Source: Naegleria gruberi
Taxonomy: Eukaryota
Length of the DNA: 64,000 nt
Assembly: GCA_000004985.1 (NCBI GenBank)
Contig: GG738846.1
Direction: 5' to 3' (one strand)
The notes under the pieces are model-generated. The model was not told the DNA's origin and did not search any database. It saw only the letters and a list, made by a program, of their open reading frames with translations. This document shows positions 15,756-28,730 of this stretch, in pieces. A program made the translations under genes and the position numbers. Numbering within the stretch: position 1 is the stretch's first letter; every line of letters starts with the position of its first letter.

Positions 15756-18290
15756 TTATTGAACTAATTTAGAGTGATACTTGTTCATGTACATGGATAA
15801 AGCCCAGATTGGGAAGATATTTCTATAGTTTGTATAGGTAATCATACAATTGTGATTGAAAACACCAGAAATGGATTCTTGTGGGAAGTCACCATTTGGT
15901 AATTGTTTTCTCATCAAACAATAGATACCCTTTTCAATAACCTTAAGATTTGGATAATTTGAAGTCATCAAGGCGAGTAAAGACCAAGCAGTACTGATAA
16001 CACGTGAAGTTTCAGCATGTGAATAACGGTGAGTCACACATGAAAGATAACTTTCTCCCCAACCACCATCTTCCATTTGTTTGGCAACAATGAAATCACA
16101 TCCACGCTTCAAAGCTTGTGAATTACCATAGTTGAGTGTTGGATCAGCACTGACAATGGCAGTAGTGGCAAACCATGTACCATAACAGAAACAGACAGCC
16201 CAACCACCATACCAACCACCTTCTTCCATTTGTTTTCCTTCAATTACTTTGATAGCATGTTTGATACTATCATCAATCATTGGAACGTATGGAGATTGTG
16301 GGAAGTGTTTCTTGAATTGCAACAAGGCAGTAATACAGGCACTTGTACATTCAGTGTGTGGATAGTCAATCATAATTTCACCATACAAAGCAGCAGGATT
16401 GATAATTTCAATCCATGAGTGTGTACGAGACAATTCATAAGTTGCCCAACCACCATTTGTACCACCATTGAACATGGACAAAATGACACGGACAGCATCT
16501 GTTAATCTTTCTTCACTGAGAATTAATTCATCACTAGTTAATGGATTCATTTCATTCTTTCCATAGTATTCTTGTAATTGTGTCTTGAGTTTTTCAATGT
16601 TTTGTAAATTGGATTCAGAGCTATTGGTTTGAGTTCCCTTAATATTGAACAAATCGTACAAGGTCAAAACAGCCTTCAAACCTTCAGCAGTACAGTCAGA
16701 AATTGGCCAACCGTGATCACGTGTAGAGAATGGCCAACCACCCTTAGATTGATGTCTATAATATTCCATTCTATTTGGAACGTCTTCCTTGACTTGAGTG
16801 AAATTGATAAAGTTGTAAGCATTCAAAAGCGAATTCAAATGCTCATTCTTAAATGATCCTTGACATGAAATTTGATTATCTTGGTTCTTGAATCTCTTGT
16901 AATATTCACAAATAGCTTGAGAAGCAAAAGCAGTATCCCACAATTGAGAACCATTATAACCTTGGAATTTCATACCATCATCAGATAACCACAAATAGTC
17001 ATAAACTCTATCTAAATGTTTGTTGAAAAGTTCACTATCTGATCCGTCACTGAAAAATACTGATAACATGTTCAATACCTTATTGACAGGACCAATACAG
17101 ATATGATTGGTGACACTATCTTCATATTTGATATGTTCAATACACTTCTTCAATGAAGCATTTCTCAAGAATGAGAAATTAATATACTTTTCATAAACAG
17201 TCAAAACACTAGCAAATTTAGAATAGAGTTGAGTGAATGGATGGTAATTGTCACGTGGATTAACATATGATCTATACTTTGACCAAGGTTGATTTTGATA
17301 ACTTGTCTTGGAGACTTGATCGTATAATTCATTTCTCAATTGTGAAATAATTGGATCAGTTTCAGCATTGGCATAAACCTTCTTGATACCATACAAGTAT
17401 GCCATTGGTAAATAAACAACACGACAATGGCACCACCATTTACCTGGTTGAATATATGGGAACCAATCAGGTAATAACCATAATTCACATGGAATTGGAT
17501 CAATACAATCCCAATCCATCAAACCCAAACAACATAAATATAATTTAGCCCATTGTGGTGCTCCCAAAGCACCGTTAGCAGGTTCCTTACTAAGGAATTC
17601 CAATGTTAATTTCATGCATGAATGATCTGGACTAACACCCAACAATCTCAATGCAACATAATTCAAAACTGTACCAAAAATGGTTGAGTGACCTTCAATA
17701 TGAAGTCCATAACCTCCATCTTGATTTTGTTTAGACAAGATGTATCTAACAATTTCATATTCAAATGGTTTAGGTAATCTCTTTTGACAAATATATAACA
17801 CAATCACAATACCAGGTAATAAAAACATTGGACCACCATAATCTCCGGCCCAATGTCCATCTTGTGTTTGAACACTAGAATAGAAATCAATAGCTTTCAA
17901 TATACTAGCATCAACTTGATGTTCATCTAAATTAATTATATAATTATTACTCTTATTAAAGATGTATTTTAATTTGTCATCATTATCGGCATTAGTAGTT
18001 GCTTGGTCATCATCATTGGTGGAACTAATATTACTTGATGTTGTACCCACAACAAGAGGATGATTATTAATATAAGTGATTGGATCTTCAAAATTTGAAG
18101 GCTTGTTTAACAAGTGTTTATCAACATTTGATTGTTCTTCTCCCGATTGTTTTAATAAAGATTGTGGGAATGGAATCCAACGTTGACGACCTTCTTTGAC
18201 GACTAATCTCCATTCTATTGGACCGGATTGGGAATAGTCATAGGAATCGAATTTAAATTCCTCCAATAATTTGTTAAGATTGATTGACAT
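15756..18290 (-). CDS. Oxidosqualene cyclase (cycloartenol/lanosterol synthase)
   Basis: ATG at 18290..18288. N-terminal WRL...GRQRW motif; catalytic DCTAEG motif (ISDCTAEGLKAV); repeated QW motifs (QNQDGGYG, QMEDGGWGES); GHSTIFGTVLNYVALRLLG. Single exon of 844 aa with an Asn/Ser/Asp-rich insertion near the N-terminus. Confidence 0.85.
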   Translation of the reverse strand: MSINLNKLLEEFKFDSYDYSQSGPIEWRLVVKEGRQRWIPFPQSLLKQSGEEQSNVDKHLLNKPSNFEDPITYINNHPLVVGTTSSNISSTNDDDQATTNADNDDKLKYIFNKSNNYIINLDEHQVDASILKAIDFYSSVQTQDGHWAGDYGGPMFLLPGIVIVLYICQKRLPKPFEYEIVRYILSKQNQDGGYGLHIEGHSTIFGTVLNYVALRLLGVSPDHSCMKLTLEFLSKEPANGALGAPQWAKLYLCCLGLMDWDCIDPIPCELWLLPDWFPYIQPGKWWCHCRVVYLPMAYLYGIKKVYANAETDPIISQLRNELYDQVSKTSYQNQPWSKYRSYVNPRDNYHPFTQLYSKFASVLTVYEKYINFSFLRNASLKKCIEHIKYEDSVTNHICIGPVNKVLNMLSVFFSDGSDSELFNKHLDRVYDYLWLSDDGMKFQGYNGSQLWDTAFASQAICEYYKRFKNQDNQISCQGSFKNEHLNSLLNAYNFINFTQVKEDVPNRMEYYRHQSKGGWPFSTRDHGWPISDCTAEGLKAVLTLYDLFNIKGTQTNSSESNLQNIEKLKTQLQEYYGKNEMNPLTSDELILSEERLTDAVRVILSMFNGGTNGGWATYELSRTHSWIEIINPAALYGEIMIDYPHTECTSACITALLQFKKHFPQSPYVPMIDDSIKHAIKVIEGKQMEEGGWYGGWAVCFCYGTWFATTAIVSADPTLNYGNSQALKRGCDFIVAKQMEDGGWGESYLSCVTHRYSHAETSRVISTAWSLLALMTSNYPNLKVIEKGIYCLMRKQLPNGDFPQESISGVFNHNCMITYTNYRNIFPIWALSMYMNKYHSKLVQ

Positions 18291-21079: not shown

Positions 21080-21689
21080 TATTAGTTTAGAATAATTTTA
21101 GCAACTATCATCAGAGAACTATTCATCAATCCCAATTTCTCCCTCCACATTTGTTGTGTAGTGTCTGAGAGAATGAATTGAAATAGATTTTACTGAGATA
21201 GTTTAATTGCACCAGTCAATCATGATATAGCTGGATTTAAGGATCATGAAACCAATCTAAACAAAACCACTTGTAAATAACAAATAAATAACTCTTTAGA
21301 AAACCTTTGAGAACCTTCTCCACTGATTTCCATCAAAATTTAATTGACAGAGTATCGAGCTCAGCTGGTCATCAACTTATTTCCTATCATGAATTCATCA
21401 GCCACACCAATACAGCTCACCTTCCAAGAAATGATCTAGCTCTCCTCATCCACACTCTTAAGAGCAAGCAAATAAATTTGCAACGCACGTTTAAATGTTC
21501 TTCTAATCTTCACAAGTTAAAAATAAAATAGTAATCGAAATCGAAACAAATCGTGATGGGAAGTCACGAATTTGCACAAATCTATTTTCACATGTGAAAA
21601 CATTTTCAAGCTATTTAAACTCTCAGTATTCTCAACTCTCTATCTTCCAACACAAAAAAAACAATACAACCCTAACACACTCTAACAAA

Positions 21690-22658
21690 ATGCAAACAAC
21701 TCAACTCACTTTCGATCAAAGTAAATCCTCAATTCTCGTCTCTTTAGATAAGAAGAAATCTGATCAACATTGTAAACTTCTTTTGGAACAACTTGTTGGA
21801 AAGTTTCAATTCAGAAATAACAAATATACCTTCAGTGGATCATATGATCTTGCACAGTGGTTGGTTCTCTCTTTTGATTCAATGGTTAAGGAAGATGAAA
21901 AGTTTTTCACAGAGATTGTCATTCCAATAGTTGCATACATTTCAATTGTGGATGATGCTTGTGATGAGAAGATTACTGACATGTCTATTGCAGAGATGAA
22001 AGAACATTGTAAGATATTTAGAGGAGAAACAGTTCATGCTTCTCACTCTGCTCTCAAGATGGGACAATTTGTGTACAATCTAATCAGGGAAGAAAGATTC
22101 GAATGTATTAGAAGAAAGGTTTTGGAATTCCTGGTGACTGGAACTAATCTAATTGAAAAGGCAAAAAATAATAATGGACCAATCACTGAAGAAATATTGG
22201 CTAACTTTTTAGAGGAAAGAAGAATTGACTCCATGGCCTCTCTTTTCTTTACTATCAACAATATCTTTAACAAGATTCCATTAGAAATTGAAAGATGCGA
22301 TAATGTGCTCATTCAATATAATCACATGGCATGTGATACGATAAGTTTATTGAATGATGTTGCCTCCATTGCAAAAGATACCCAAAAGAAACTTGTCAAC
22401 AATTATGTAATATTGAATAAGGGAATGAAAGAGAACTTATCGTACAGTGAATTGAAACAACTCCCAATTGAAGCATTTGAATCTTCCGTGAATGAAGTTT
22501 TAGAATTAATCAATGCTAATTTGTTTCAAATGCAAACTATCAAATCCTCCAATCCATCCTTCTCCACACAATTCGGTTCAATCGATGAGGTCATGAAGGG
22601 ATACTGTAATTACAATCTGCAATTACAATATCAATTTTTTCTTTTGATAATATCTTAA
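21690..22658 (+). CDS. Class I terpene synthase (microbial-type TPS)
   Basis: Asp-rich motif IVDDACDE (DDxxD/E) and downstream NSE/DTE-like motif NDVASIAKD. Size about 320 aa, typical of microbial-type TPS. First ATG at 21690. The C-terminal 20 aa may be intron read-through (GTAATT at about 22606). Confidence 0.55.
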   Translation: MQTTQLTFDQSKSSILVSLDKKKSDQHCKLLLEQLVGKFQFRNNKYTFSGSYDLAQWLVLSFDSMVKEDEKFFTEIVIPIVAYISIVDDACDEKITDMSIAEMKEHCKIFRGETVHASHSALKMGQFVYNLIREERFECIRRKVLEFLVTGTNLIEKAKNNNGPITEEILANFLEERRIDSMASLFFTINNIFNKIPLEIERCDNVLIQYNHMACDTISLLNDVASIAKDTQKKLVNNYVILNKGMKENLSYSELKQLPIEAFESSVNEVLELINANLFQMQTIKSSNPSFSTQFGSIDEVMKGYCNYNLQLQYQFFLLIIS

Positions 22659-22802
22659 TGATTGACTTAATATCTCTTTCAAGAACAAAATATATCAAAA
22701 AAACTATTTCTACATGTCAATTTCTTTGAAGCGTTTTGCAAATTAAAGAAAAAATTAGATAGAAAAAGCTTGAATCTTTTTTGAGAAATTCAATCAAAAA
22801 AA

Positions 22803-27513: not shown

Positions 27514-28730
27514 ATGAGTTTATTGTGGACGTTCATGTTGCAACCCATGTTGGTGATTGGTAGTGCTCTATCAGTGGTTCACTTACTTCACTACTTGTTT
27601 ATTCAAAGAAAAAAGATGAAACATTCAATGGAAGGAAAAACTGTTTTAATTACTGGAGGATCGACTGGTATTGGATTAGGTAGGTGTTTGTAATGGTGTT
27701 GAATCATTCCGATCATGATGATTATTTTGAATATTATATTTAATAATAATATTATTATAATATTGTATTTATAACATTAATTGTATTTATTGTATTTAAT
27801 AATGATGATGAAATTTTAAAATAATATATAGGTATTGGTATTGAATGTTTAAAACAAAAGGCTAAAACATTGATTATTGTTGCAAGAAATCAAGAAAAAT
27901 TGGAACAAGCAAAGAAGGAATTACAAGAATATTGTAAAGGAAAGCAAGAAGTTATTATTCATTCATGTGATGTTGGTGATGAGGATCAAGTTGACAAGAT
28001 GATTGAACATTTATATTCAAGTGCTATTGAAAATGTTGATTATTTATTTATTAACCAAGGATTGTCAATTCCAGGATATATTCTCTCACAAAAGATGGAG
28101 GATTTCAAATATCAAATGAATTTGAATTATTTCAGTCATGTCATGCTTTCAAAGAAATTTATTCCTAAAATGATGGATTTGGAAGCTGCTAGTGGTGGAG
28201 CATTTGATAGACATGTCATTTTCGTTGGATCAGCATGTTCAATTGCATCATTTGTTGGATATGGATCTTATTCACCAACCAAGTATGCTATTAAGGGTTA
28301 TGCTGAAGCTCTTCGTAATGAATTATTGGGAACTAATATTAGAGTTCACTTGGCTTTACCTGTTGATACAGATACTGAAGGATTCAAGAAGGAAAATGAA
28401 ACAAAACCAAAGGAATGTGCAATCTTGTCAAGTCTCTCTGGATTACAAACCTATATTGAATCAGGTTCAATGCTTGTAAAGAATTTATTGAAATCTTCCA
28501 TTCAATTCTATGTCATTTCCTCATTCGACACCTACCTTCAAATTGTTGGAGCTACTCTTGGTGTAGGACCATGTGTAAATAGATTCAACTATCCAATGAT
28601 TGATATGTTCACATCAAGTTTATTCATTCCTTCTGTCATTTTGAGAAGTATTGCCTATTATTTCGATCATGTAAGTGAAAAGGCTGCACACACTCATAGA
28701 AATGAAATTTTCAAACAATTACAAAAATAA
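27514..28730 (+). CDS. 3-ketodihydrosphingosine reductase (KDSR/Tsc10-like short-chain dehydrogenase); 2 exons 27514..27679 and 27832..28730
   Basis: N-terminal transmembrane segment. TGGSTGIGLGIGIEC cofactor motif is reconstituted across the intron (27680..27831, GTAGGT...TATAG). ARNQEKLEQAKKEL, the YSPTK catalytic Y-x-x-x-K and LPVDTDTEGFKKENETKP closely parallel KDSR. Confidence 0.75.

What the first reader, a model, noticed from the sequence alone, without database searches (positions are those of the whole stretch)
21690..22658. Microbial-type terpene synthase gene in an amoeba-like genome
The protein carries IVDDACDE (DDxxD/E) and a downstream NDVASIAKD (NSE/DTE-like) motif at the spacing expected for class I terpene synthases. 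It lies among housekeeping genes, with no P450 or prenyltransferase neighbour in the window. Substitution of the terminal Glu of the NSE triad by Asp is unusual and could affect metal binding or product profile. The C-terminal roughly 20 aa may be an unrecognised intron.
Basis: partly seen in the sequence, partly recalled or inferred. Interest (0 to 1): 0.65.

Follow-up and report, generated by a model that had tools for sequence, protein, structure and literature searches.

The report
Truncated terpene synthase gene in Naegleria
This is a known, database-annotated microbial-type terpene synthase gene of the amoeba Naegleria gruberi, but this copy has lost its 3' end, including a conserved active-site motif, so it is probably a crippled duplicate rather than a working enzyme.

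Summary
The ORF at 21690-22658 is real. It is 100% identical to Naegleria gruberi NAEGRDRAFT_61874 (XP_002682659.1, 322 aa). It scores above Pfam's threshold for Terpene_syn_C_2, and its AlphaFold model matches only microbial class I terpene synthases. DDACDE (88-93), the diphosphate-sensor Arg177 and NDVASIAKD (222-230) sit at the canonical positions.

The Asp that ends the NSE triad is not special to this gene. Seven of the eight other Naegleria sequences compared have it, and one has Glu.

The suspicious C-terminus is not an intron. Similarity to both close paralogues, and to a 95%-identical metagenome contig, stops at base 22607/22608, after GYC306. Every other relative compared continues with WCxxSxR(F/Y)xHxxH, the WxxxxxRY motif that binds diphosphate and closes the active site. 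Nothing matching that missing part exists anywhere in the window, and no in-frame GT-AG splice restores it.

The window therefore holds a 3'-truncated copy, probably inactive or badly impaired.

Terpene synthases in N. gruberi were published in 2016, so novelty is low. No P450 or prenyltransferase lies in the window, but an oxidosqualene cyclase lies 3.4 kb upstream.

The parts
21690..22658 (+). Annotated ORF, 322 codons plus TAA: N. gruberi NAEGRDRAFT_61874 / EFC49915.1 / XP_002682659.1 / UniProt D2UZB1
   Evidence: 100% identity over 322 aa to the NCBI 'predicted protein'.
21690..22607 (+). Codons 1-306, the single-exon part that is homologous to the terpene synthase family (class I alpha-domain, through most of the last core helix)
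   Evidence: tblastn of paralogue P0002 residues 1-307 aligns to 21690-22613. blastn of L001 ends at 22608. Pfam PF19086 hit. AF2 model pLDDT 80, pTM 0.80, and the 50 Foldseek PDB hits listed are all class I TPS.
21945..21968 (+). IVDDACDE (residues 86-93): the Asp-rich DDxxD/E motif (D88, D89, D92, E93), inferred ligands of Mg2+ A and C
   Evidence: V87, D88, D89, A90, C91 and D92 are invariant in all 9 Naegleria sequences. It lies inside the PF19086 match.
22218..22232 (+). R177-R-I-D180-S181: the diphosphate-sensor Arg with its linker Asp
   Evidence: R177, D180 and S181 are invariant in the family. R177 lies 45 residues upstream of N222. The bacterial TPS sensor Arg lies 46 residues upstream of NSE (PMC6808215).
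22353..22379 (+). NDVASIAKD (residues 222-230): NSE-type triad N222/S226/D230, with Asp in place of the canonical Glu; inferred Mg2+ B site
   Evidence: The profile alignment places it on NDIASLEKE of pentalenene synthase 1PS1. N222, D223, S226 and K229 are invariant. The last position is D in 8 of the 9 aligned sequences and E in P0007.
22608..22658 (+). Codons 307-322 plus stop (NYNLQLQYQFFLLIIS*): read-through into unrelated AT-rich DNA after the point where homology ends. It takes the place of the family's WCxxSxR(F/Y)xHxxH motif and C-terminal tail.
   Evidence: Homology to P0002, P0003 and L001 ends here. pLDDT is below 50 for residues 314-322. No sequence matching the missing tail is in the window.
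22659..22802 (.). Intergenic DNA up to the ATG of the next gene (22803). It holds no exon of the terpene synthase.
   Evidence: Three-frame translations were compared with the paralogue tails and scored 27 or less. The 'ISLKRF' look-alike in the +1 frame scores no better than 812 of 1000 shuffles.

Best explanation
The gene is one of at least five distinct terpene-synthase-like genes of Naegleria gruberi. They belong to a very divergent clade of microbial-type class I terpene synthases (TPS) that was detected here only in Naegleria.

Full-length members should work like bacterial and fungal sesquiterpene or diterpene synthases. This part is inferred from established class I chemistry. D88/D89 of DDACDE and N222/S226/D230 hold three Mg2+ ions that bind the diphosphate of a prenyl diphosphate. 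R177 senses the diphosphate. The C-terminal W-x5-R-(F/Y) element and the tail after it clamp the diphosphate and close the pocket. Ionisation then starts carbocation cyclisation.

The copy in this window keeps every family-invariant residue up to G304. Its homology stops at C306, at base 22607/22608. It lacks the W...R(F/Y) element and the 60-80 residues that follow, and ends in 16 unrelated residues.

It is therefore a 3'-truncated duplicate, produced by a deletion, a rearrangement or a partial duplication. As a cyclase it is most likely inactive or severely impaired, that is, a young pseudogene or a crippled paralogue.

Shown: family membership by homology and predicted fold, the motif positions, and the truncation. 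Inferred: the metal and substrate roles, and the loss of activity.
For: Identity and family. The ORF is 100% identical to N. gruberi XP_002682659.1. PF19086 scores 33.6 bits against a cut-off of 23.7. The family profile hits only class I TPS among the significant PDB matches, with pentalenene synthase at E = 3e-5. AF2 models have pLDDT 80 for the window protein and 84 for paralogue P0002, and the 50 Foldseek PDB hits listed for each are all microbial class I TPS, TM up to about 0.75.

Restricted clade. A profile search of 1.84 billion representative proteins found only Naegleria proteins at E <= 1e-3.

Truncation. Paralogues P0002 and P0003 and the more distant P0004/8, P0007, P0005 and P0011 all carry GY..WC..S.R(F/Y).H..H. 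The window protein alone diverges after GYC306. That motif aligns to W308...R314-Y315 of pentalenene synthase. Contig L001 is 95% identical in DNA from 21163 to 22608. Similarity then stops, while L001 continues without an intron into TWCIISKRFQ...stop. No homologue of the missing part is in the window, and the window has no Ns.

Functional weight of the lost part. In CotB2 the Arg of WxxxxxRY salt-bridges an Asp of the Asp-rich motif and the diphosphate, and the Tyr bonds the diphosphate and the NSE Asn. Removing only the 12-residue lid after the Arg abolished activity (PMC6808215).
Against: The 306 homologous codons hold no stop or frameshift, and all family-invariant residues are kept. dN/dS against L001 is about 0.3, from 14 synonymous and 18 non-synonymous changes. 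That does not look like long-term decay, although it averages over both lineages and the differences are few.

L001 is a mosaic. Its codons 235-370 are almost identical to paralogue P0002, and dS jumps from 0.03 to 0.26. It may be a gene-conversion product or a chimeric metagenome assembly, so it does not prove that the true orthologue is full length.

I had no reads, so an assembly error at 22608 cannot be excluded. No expression or enzyme data exist for any Naegleria TPS in the literature I could search. Most clade members already have Phe in place of the Tyr of the RY pair, so the clade may depend less on this element than bacterial enzymes do.
Confidence: 0.7

Rival explanations
1. The 322-aa protein as annotated is a complete, working terpene synthase. 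The unusual tail simply replaces the usual C-terminus.
For: The ORF is intact and the Asp-rich motif, Arg sensor and NSE-like triad are all present. The core fold is predicted with confidence. dN/dS against L001 is about 0.3. At 322 aa the length is within the range of bacterial sesquiterpene synthases, which are 290-340 aa among the PDB targets.
Against: It is the only one of nine Naegleria sequences without the W...R(F/Y) element. The tail has no basic residue to replace the Arg, is unrelated to any relative, and is modelled at pLDDT below 50. Loss of much less C-terminus inactivates CotB2 (PMC6808215).
Confidence: 0.17
2. The truncation is an error of the reference assembly or sequence, and the organism carries a full-length gene at this locus.
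For: L001 joins a window-like 5' flank and a window-like first 234 codons to a complete 3' end. Another N. gruberi model (NAEGRDRAFT_52878, P0008) differs from its environmental counterpart P0004 by what looks like a frameshifted tail, so 3' ends in this assembly or annotation are not all reliable.
Against: The window has no Ns or gap near 22608. The change is a complete loss of similarity rather than a frameshift. The flanking gene starts normally 195 nt later. L001 itself may be chimeric.
Confidence: 0.1
3. The last 16-20 codons are an unrecognised intron, and a downstream exon restores the normal C-terminus.
For: A GT lies at 22606-22607, right where homology ends, and a good pyrimidine-rich AG acceptor lies at 22682-22683. 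'ISLKRF' appears in the +1 frame at 22720-22737.
Against: Splicing 22606 to 22683 creates a TAA codon at the junction. The only in-frame route to 'KRF' uses a poor donor (GTCATG at 22590) and deletes the conserved VMKGYC (by hand). The 'KRF' match is no better than 812 of 1000 shuffles. The full-length relative L001 has no intron at this point. No sequence similar to the missing 60-80 residues exists within 64 kb.
Confidence: 0.02
4. The two motifs co-occur by chance, and the protein is not related to terpene synthases.
For: Sequence identity to solved TPS structures is only 12-14%. A single-sequence search of the PDB finds nothing.
Against: The Pfam hit is above its threshold. The profile hits only TPS at significant E-values in the PDB, with all the motifs in register. 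The fold search returns only class I TPS among the 50 hits listed.
Confidence: 0.01

Closest known systems
N. gruberi paralogues NAEGRDRAFT_65839 (P0002, 368 aa) and NAEGRDRAFT_61605 (P0003, 389 aa)
   Same: 83% and 70% identical over residues 1-306. They share the same start (MQTTQ / MQAQV), IVDDACDE, RR(I/V)DS and NDVASIAKD, and have no intron in the shared part.
   Different: After GYC they continue with TWCIISKRFQ..NHLLPEYH plus 45-65 more residues. The window copy has 16 unrelated residues and then a stop.
Bacterial and fungal class I sesquiterpene or diterpene synthases, e.g. pentalenene synthase (1PS1), T-muurolol synthase (9HQI), hydropyrene synthase (8B4L), aristolochene synthase
   Same: The single alpha-domain fold is shared, with TM up to about 0.75. 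The Asp-rich motif, the Arg sensor, the NSE-position triad and, in full-length Naegleria members, W-x5-R-(F/Y) are all in register.
   Different: Only 12-14% identical. The triad ends in Asp rather than Glu. Most of the clade has R-F rather than R-Y. The window copy lacks the W...R element altogether.
Amoebal terpene synthases of dictyostelids and Physarum (Chen et al. 2016 PNAS; PMC6156593; PMC6902781)
   Same: They are microbial-type TPS genes in amoeboid protists. Published trees place the N. gruberi TPSs with the dictyostelid and Physarum PpolyTPS1/4 group, nearer to fungal TPSs (PMC6902781).
   Different: They are too distant to be found by a Naegleria profile at E <= 1e-3 among 1.84 billion proteins. 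The dictyostelid and Physarum enzymes have been assayed. I found no report of an assayed Naegleria enzyme.
CotB2 deltaC, an engineered C-terminal truncation of a bacterial diterpene synthase
   Same: It is a class I TPS with an intact core and metal motifs but without its C-terminal closing element.
   Different: It was engineered. It removes only the 12 residues after the Arg of WxxxxxRY, and no substrate conversion was observed (PMC6808215). The window gene has lost more: the Trp, the Arg and everything after them.

Membership tests
Class I (ionisation-dependent) terpene synthase, microbial type (Pfam PF19086 Terpene_syn_C_2) | Significant match to the family model, above its curated threshold | tested here: met
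   33.6 bits against a gathering score of 23.7, E = 4e-8, residues 81-242. All eight relatives that were scanned or carry a precomputed record also match PF19086.
Class I (ionisation-dependent) terpene synthase, microbial type (Pfam PF19086 Terpene_syn_C_2) | All-helical class I terpenoid synthase (alpha) fold | tested here: met
   The AF2 model has pLDDT 80 and pTM 0.80. The 50 Foldseek PDB hits listed are all class I TPS, E down to 1.6e-6, TM 0.65-0.77. This is a predicted structure, not a solved one.
Class I (ionisation-dependent) terpene synthase, microbial type (Pfam PF19086 Terpene_syn_C_2) | Asp-rich motif DDxxD/E | tested here: met
   D88-D89-A-C-D92-E93. VDDACD is invariant in 9 Naegleria sequences.
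Class I (ionisation-dependent) terpene synthase, microbial type (Pfam PF19086 Terpene_syn_C_2) | NSE/DTE triad (N/D)D(L/I/V)x(S/T)xxxE | tested here: inconclusive
   N222 and S226 are present and aligned to N219 and S223 of pentalenene synthase. The third ligand is Asp230, where the consensus and pentalenene synthase (E227) have Glu. Asp is conserved in 7 of the 8 other Naegleria sequences, which argues that it works. Metal binding was not tested.
Class I (ionisation-dependent) terpene synthase, microbial type (Pfam PF19086 Terpene_syn_C_2) | [quoted passage not shown] | tested here: met
   R177 is invariant in the family and lies 45 residues before N222. The criterion is taken from PMC6808215.
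Class I (ionisation-dependent) terpene synthase, microbial type (Pfam PF19086 Terpene_syn_C_2) | C-terminal RY pair / WxxxxxRY motif. [quoted passage not shown] | tested here: not met
   It is absent from the window protein. It is present as W-x5-R-F or R-Y in all eight relatives and aligns to W308...R314-Y315 of pentalenene synthase. The gene is therefore a family member by descent but fails this functional criterion.
Class I (ionisation-dependent) terpene synthase, microbial type (Pfam PF19086 Terpene_syn_C_2) | Mg2+-dependent conversion of a prenyl diphosphate to terpene products | not testable with these tools
   No enzymology can be done here, and no report of an assayed Naegleria TPS was found.
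Terpenoid biosynthetic gene cluster (TPS with a tailoring P450 or a prenyltransferase) | A P450, prenyltransferase or other tailoring gene next to the TPS | tested here: not met
   Pfam scans of 30 of the 34 other ORFs of at least 150 aa, plus one shorter ORF, found no P450 or polyprenyl synthase. The six-frame scan found no FxxGxRxCxG motif. An oxidosqualene cyclase lies at 15756-18290 (-) and a short-chain dehydrogenase at 27870-28730 (+). Nothing ties either of them to the TPS.

The most novel reading that the evidence does not exclude
The truncated protein is expressed and still does something. One possibility is that it works as a cyclase or an acyclic-product synthase. That would show that in this Naegleria clade (triad ending in Asp, R-F in place of R-Y) the W...R(F/Y)/lid element is dispensable. 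The other possibility is that it has become a non-catalytic prenyl-diphosphate-binding protein. More broadly, the Naegleria clade may represent an uncharacterised variant of class I chemistry. In N. fowleri and N. lovaniensis its homologue is fused to a His-box membrane domain.
Probability: 0.12. Interest if true: 0.5.

Novelty: already known. Interest (0 to 1): 0.22.

Why it matters
It matters little for discovery. Terpene synthase genes in N. gruberi were reported in 2016, and this gene already carries the Pfam domain in public databases.

It has some practical use. Anyone who clones Naegleria terpene synthases should avoid NAEGRDRAFT_61874 as annotated, or repair its 3' end, and start instead from NAEGRDRAFT_65839 or 61605. 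The Naegleria enzymes appear to be untested, form a genus-restricted clade, and carry an N-S-D metal triad and mostly R-F in place of R-Y. That makes them reasonable targets for asking how much variation the class I active site tolerates.

Tried and rejected
1. Intron hypothesis. I enumerated the GT donors (22590, 22606) and the AG acceptors (22683, 22731 and later) by hand. None gives an in-frame product resembling the family, and the obvious splice (22606 to 22683) creates a TAA. Rejected.

2. 'ISLKRF' in the +1 frame as a remnant of WxxxxxRF. 812 of 1000 shuffles score as well. Rejected as chance.

3. Search for the missing 3' coding part elsewhere in the window, by tblastn with the paralogue tails and blastn-short with L001 1342-1575. 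Only noise was found.

4. Microhomology deletion ending inside the 3' UTR of L001. The UTR does not align to the window beyond chance; 314 of 2000 shuffles score as well. The distal breakpoint remains undefined.

5. DNA of the paralogues. The look-up of encoding contigs has no record for P0001-P0003, so I could not compare paralogues at the DNA level or compute dN/dS between them.

6. More relatives in JGI metagenomes. The one locus found (L002) is a chance SVVDDACD in the antisense frame of a bacterial gene. Viral contigs gave none, so there is no support for a giant-virus link.

7. Chen et al. 2016 (PMC5087028) is not held in the library, so I could not check how many N. gruberi TPS genes it lists, or which ones.

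8. A literature search for an 'NSD motif' found nothing. I could not measure how rare Asp at this position is across all TPSs.

Full report
**What is there.** The window is AT-rich eukaryotic DNA, about 33% GC. An uninterrupted ORF runs from the ATG at 21690 to the TAA at 22656-22658 and encodes 322 aa. The protein is 100% identical over its full length to the NCBI 'predicted protein' NAEGRDRAFT_61874 of Naegleria gruberi (EFC49915.1, XP_002682659.1, UniProt D2UZB1), which lies on a 1.0-Mb scaffold. The 'amoeba-like genome' is therefore N. gruberi.

**Is it a terpene synthase?** Yes, by homology.
- Pfam Terpene_syn_C_2 (PF19086) matches residues 81-242 at 33.6 bits, against a gathering threshold of 23.7, with E = 4e-8.
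- A single-sequence search of PDB sequences finds nothing.
- A profile of nine Naegleria sequences (A2) hits only class I terpene synthases at significant E-values: pentalenene, T-muurolol, trichodiene, cembrene A, caryolan-1-ol and presilphiperfolanol synthases, with E from 3e-5 to 1e-4.
- The motifs are in register in that alignment. NDvaSlpKD lies on NDIASLEKE of pentalenene synthase (the N219/S223/E227 triad). GYvgWclkSkRf lies on GSYDWHRSSGRY (W308...R314-Y315).
- AlphaFold2 models built on the nine-sequence alignment are confident: the window protein has pLDDT 80 and pTM 0.80, and paralogue P0002 has pLDDT 84 and pTM 0.84.
- Foldseek against the PDB lists only microbial class I terpene synthases among the top 50 hits for both models, with TM up to about 0.75 and 12-14% identity.
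- R177-x-x-D180-S181 is invariant in the family and lies 45 residues before N222. [quoted passage not shown]

**The family.** The word-indexed search found only two close paralogues in N. gruberi: P0002 (NAEGRDRAFT_65839, 368 aa, 83% identical) and P0003 (NAEGRDRAFT_61605, 389 aa, 70% identical). A profile search that reads all 1.84 billion representative proteins found five proteins at E <= 1e-3, and every one is from Naegleria:
- the P0002 cluster;
- P0004/P0008, N. gruberi NAEGRDRAFT_52878;
- P0007/P0012, N. gruberi NAEGRDRAFT_54762, which carries two accession pairs;
- P0005/P0010, N. fowleri FDP41_010467, 865 aa;
- P0006/P0011, N. lovaniensis C9374_013610, 891 aa.

All match PF19086. Scans of JGI metagenome contigs and of viral contigs added nothing real. 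This is a very divergent clade, seen here only in the genus Naegleria, that is still recognisable as class I terpene synthase.

**The Asp at the end of the NSE triad.** It is not a feature of this gene alone. The aligned position is Asp in eight of the nine Naegleria sequences, from three species, and Glu only in P0007. Conservation across species argues that Asp is a working ligand in this clade. Whether it alters metal geometry or product outcome cannot be tested here.

**The C-terminus.** This is where the finding changes.
- Both close paralogues continue after ...EVMKGYC with TWCIISKRFQ(L/H)(E/S)NHLLPEYH and 45-65 further residues.
- The more distant Naegleria proteins have (G/V)WC(F/L)(K/N)S(P/K)R(F/Y)(Q/K)H(A/E/P)(N/E)H at the same place.
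- The window protein alone diverges after C306 into NYNLQLQYQFFLLIIS and a stop.
- The conserved element is the WxxxxxRY motif of microbial terpene synthases.
- At the DNA level, tblastn of P0002 stops at 22613.
- The 90%-identity cluster of the window protein contains a 414-aa member, P0013, from an ENA metagenome contig (L001, 1575 nt). L001 is 95-97% identical to window 21163-22608, including the non-coding 5' flank. Similarity ends abruptly at 22608, one base after the Cys306 codon. L001 then reads on, without an intron, through TWCIISKRFQ... to its own stop.
- The missing 234 nt of L001 and the protein tails of both paralogues have no counterpart anywhere in the 64 kb on either strand, and the window contains no Ns.

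**Why it is not an intron.**
- The only GT in the region is at 22606-22607. Pairing it with the one good acceptor, at 22682-22683, produces a TAA at the junction.
- The next acceptor gives an unrelated peptide.
- The only in-frame path to the 'ISLKRF' look-alike in the +1 frame needs a poor donor (GTCATG at 22590) and would delete the conserved VMKGYC (by hand).
- That look-alike is in any case no better than 812 of 1000 shuffles.
- The full-length relative L001 has no intron at this point.

The last 16 codons are read-through into unrelated DNA after a breakpoint. The gene is 3'-truncated.

**How the truncation arose is not resolved.** L001 is a mosaic. Its codons 1-234 resemble the window gene, with 8 amino-acid differences and dS of 0.03 over codons 1-230. 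Its codons 235-370 are almost identical to paralogue P0002, with two amino-acid differences, and dS against the window rises to 0.26. Two readings fit. In one, a full-length orthologue exists in a related strain, has undergone gene conversion, and the window copy suffered a deletion. In the other, L001 is a chimeric assembly and the window copy could be a partial duplicate from birth. Both give the same picture of the window gene. The 43-nt 3' UTR of L001 does not align beyond the breakpoint, so the far end of the event is undefined. An error in the reference assembly cannot be excluded without reads.

**Likely function.** For full-length members I infer the standard class I mechanism. Three Mg2+ ions are held by D88/D89 and by N222/S226/D230. 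R177 and the C-terminal Arg bind the diphosphate. The pocket closes, the substrate ionises, and the carbocation cyclises. These roles rest on motif register and on the predicted fold, not on experiment.

For the window copy the closing element is gone. In CotB2 the motif's Arg salt-bridges an Asp of the Asp-rich motif and the diphosphate, the Tyr bonds the diphosphate and the NSE Asn, the Trp lines the pocket, and removing only the 12 residues after the Arg abolishes turnover (PMC6808215). The replacement tail in the window protein has no basic residue and is modelled with pLDDT below 50. I therefore rate it as probably inactive or severely impaired.

Three points count against calling it a dead gene. 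The 306 homologous codons are intact. Every family-invariant residue is retained. dN/dS against L001 is about 0.3. If it is a pseudogene, it is a young one.

**Genomic context.** Pfam scans covered 30 of the 34 other ORFs of at least 150 aa, plus one shorter ORF. They show COG3, a PI3-kinase, an ABC ATPase, a short-chain dehydrogenase, an aladin-like WD40 protein, a DEAD-box helicase, TAP42, a ubiquitin hydrolase and many ORFs with no match. It has both squalene-hopene cyclase domains (E = 3e-45 and 4e-38), a DCTAE catalytic motif and a QW motif, and it lies 3.4 kb upstream with two unknown ORFs in between. I treat this as coincidental proximity of a sterol-pathway gene, and I did not test it.

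**Novelty.** TPS genes of N. gruberi were taken from Chen et al. 2016 (PNAS 113:12132) into the phylogeny of PMC6902781, where they group with dictyostelid and Physarum TPSs near the fungal enzymes. This protein already carries PF19086 in public records. The core of the finding is therefore already known. What this analysis adds is modest:
- this particular copy is truncated just before the WxxxxxR(F/Y) motif;
- the Asp-ended triad and R-F are traits of the clade;
- the clade was found only in Naegleria;
- no biochemical study of any Naegleria TPS turned up.

Interest is low.

Noticed in passing
window 15756-18290 (-): An 843-aa ORF is an oxidosqualene cyclase (class II triterpene cyclase). 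It has Pfam SQHop_cyclase_N and _C domains, a DCTAE motif at 16683-16697 and a QW motif at 16059-16106. It sits only 3.4 kb upstream of the class I terpene synthase, with two unknown ORFs between them. This is probably a sterol-pathway gene that is there by coincidence.
   Followed up: partly
outside the window: P0005/P0010 (N. fowleri FDP41_010467, 865 aa) and P0011 (N. lovaniensis C9374_013610, 891 aa): In these two species the terpene synthase domain is fused to a hydrophobic C-terminal domain of about 300 aa with three His boxes (HTLLH, HKTHH, HAIHH). UniRef calls it a fatty acid desaturase domain, but Pfam gives no hit even at E <= 10. It may be a terpene synthase fused to a membrane oxygenase, in a human pathogen.
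   Followed up: partly
L001 (ENA metagenome ERZ929261, contig k127_280695), 420-1532: This environmental counterpart of the window gene is a mosaic. Its codons 1-234 resemble the window gene. Its codons 235-370 are nearly identical to paralogue NAEGRDRAFT_65839. dS against the window jumps from 0.03 to 0.26. The cause is either gene conversion between paralogues or a chimeric assembly.
   Followed up: partly
window 21307-21431: A 125-nt stretch of the 5' flank of the terpene synthase gene is absent from L001, which has 19 unrelated nt there. The flanks on both sides are 95-97% identical. This is an indel polymorphism of unknown meaning.
   Followed up: no
outside the window: P0008 (N. gruberi NAEGRDRAFT_52878) versus P0004/P0009: The reference gene model diverges from two near-identical environmental sequences after ...LLKDNS. 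It loses the conserved TYLDVI element that the N. fowleri and N. lovaniensis homologues share. This looks like a frameshift or a mis-modelled 3' end in the reference, which would be a second Naegleria TPS-like gene with a doubtful C-terminus.
   Followed up: no
window 27870-28730 (+): A short-chain dehydrogenase/reductase ORF (adh_short, E = 1.6e-27) lies 5 kb downstream of the terpene synthase. Enzymes of this kind sometimes tailor terpenoids, but nothing here shows a link.
   Followed up: no
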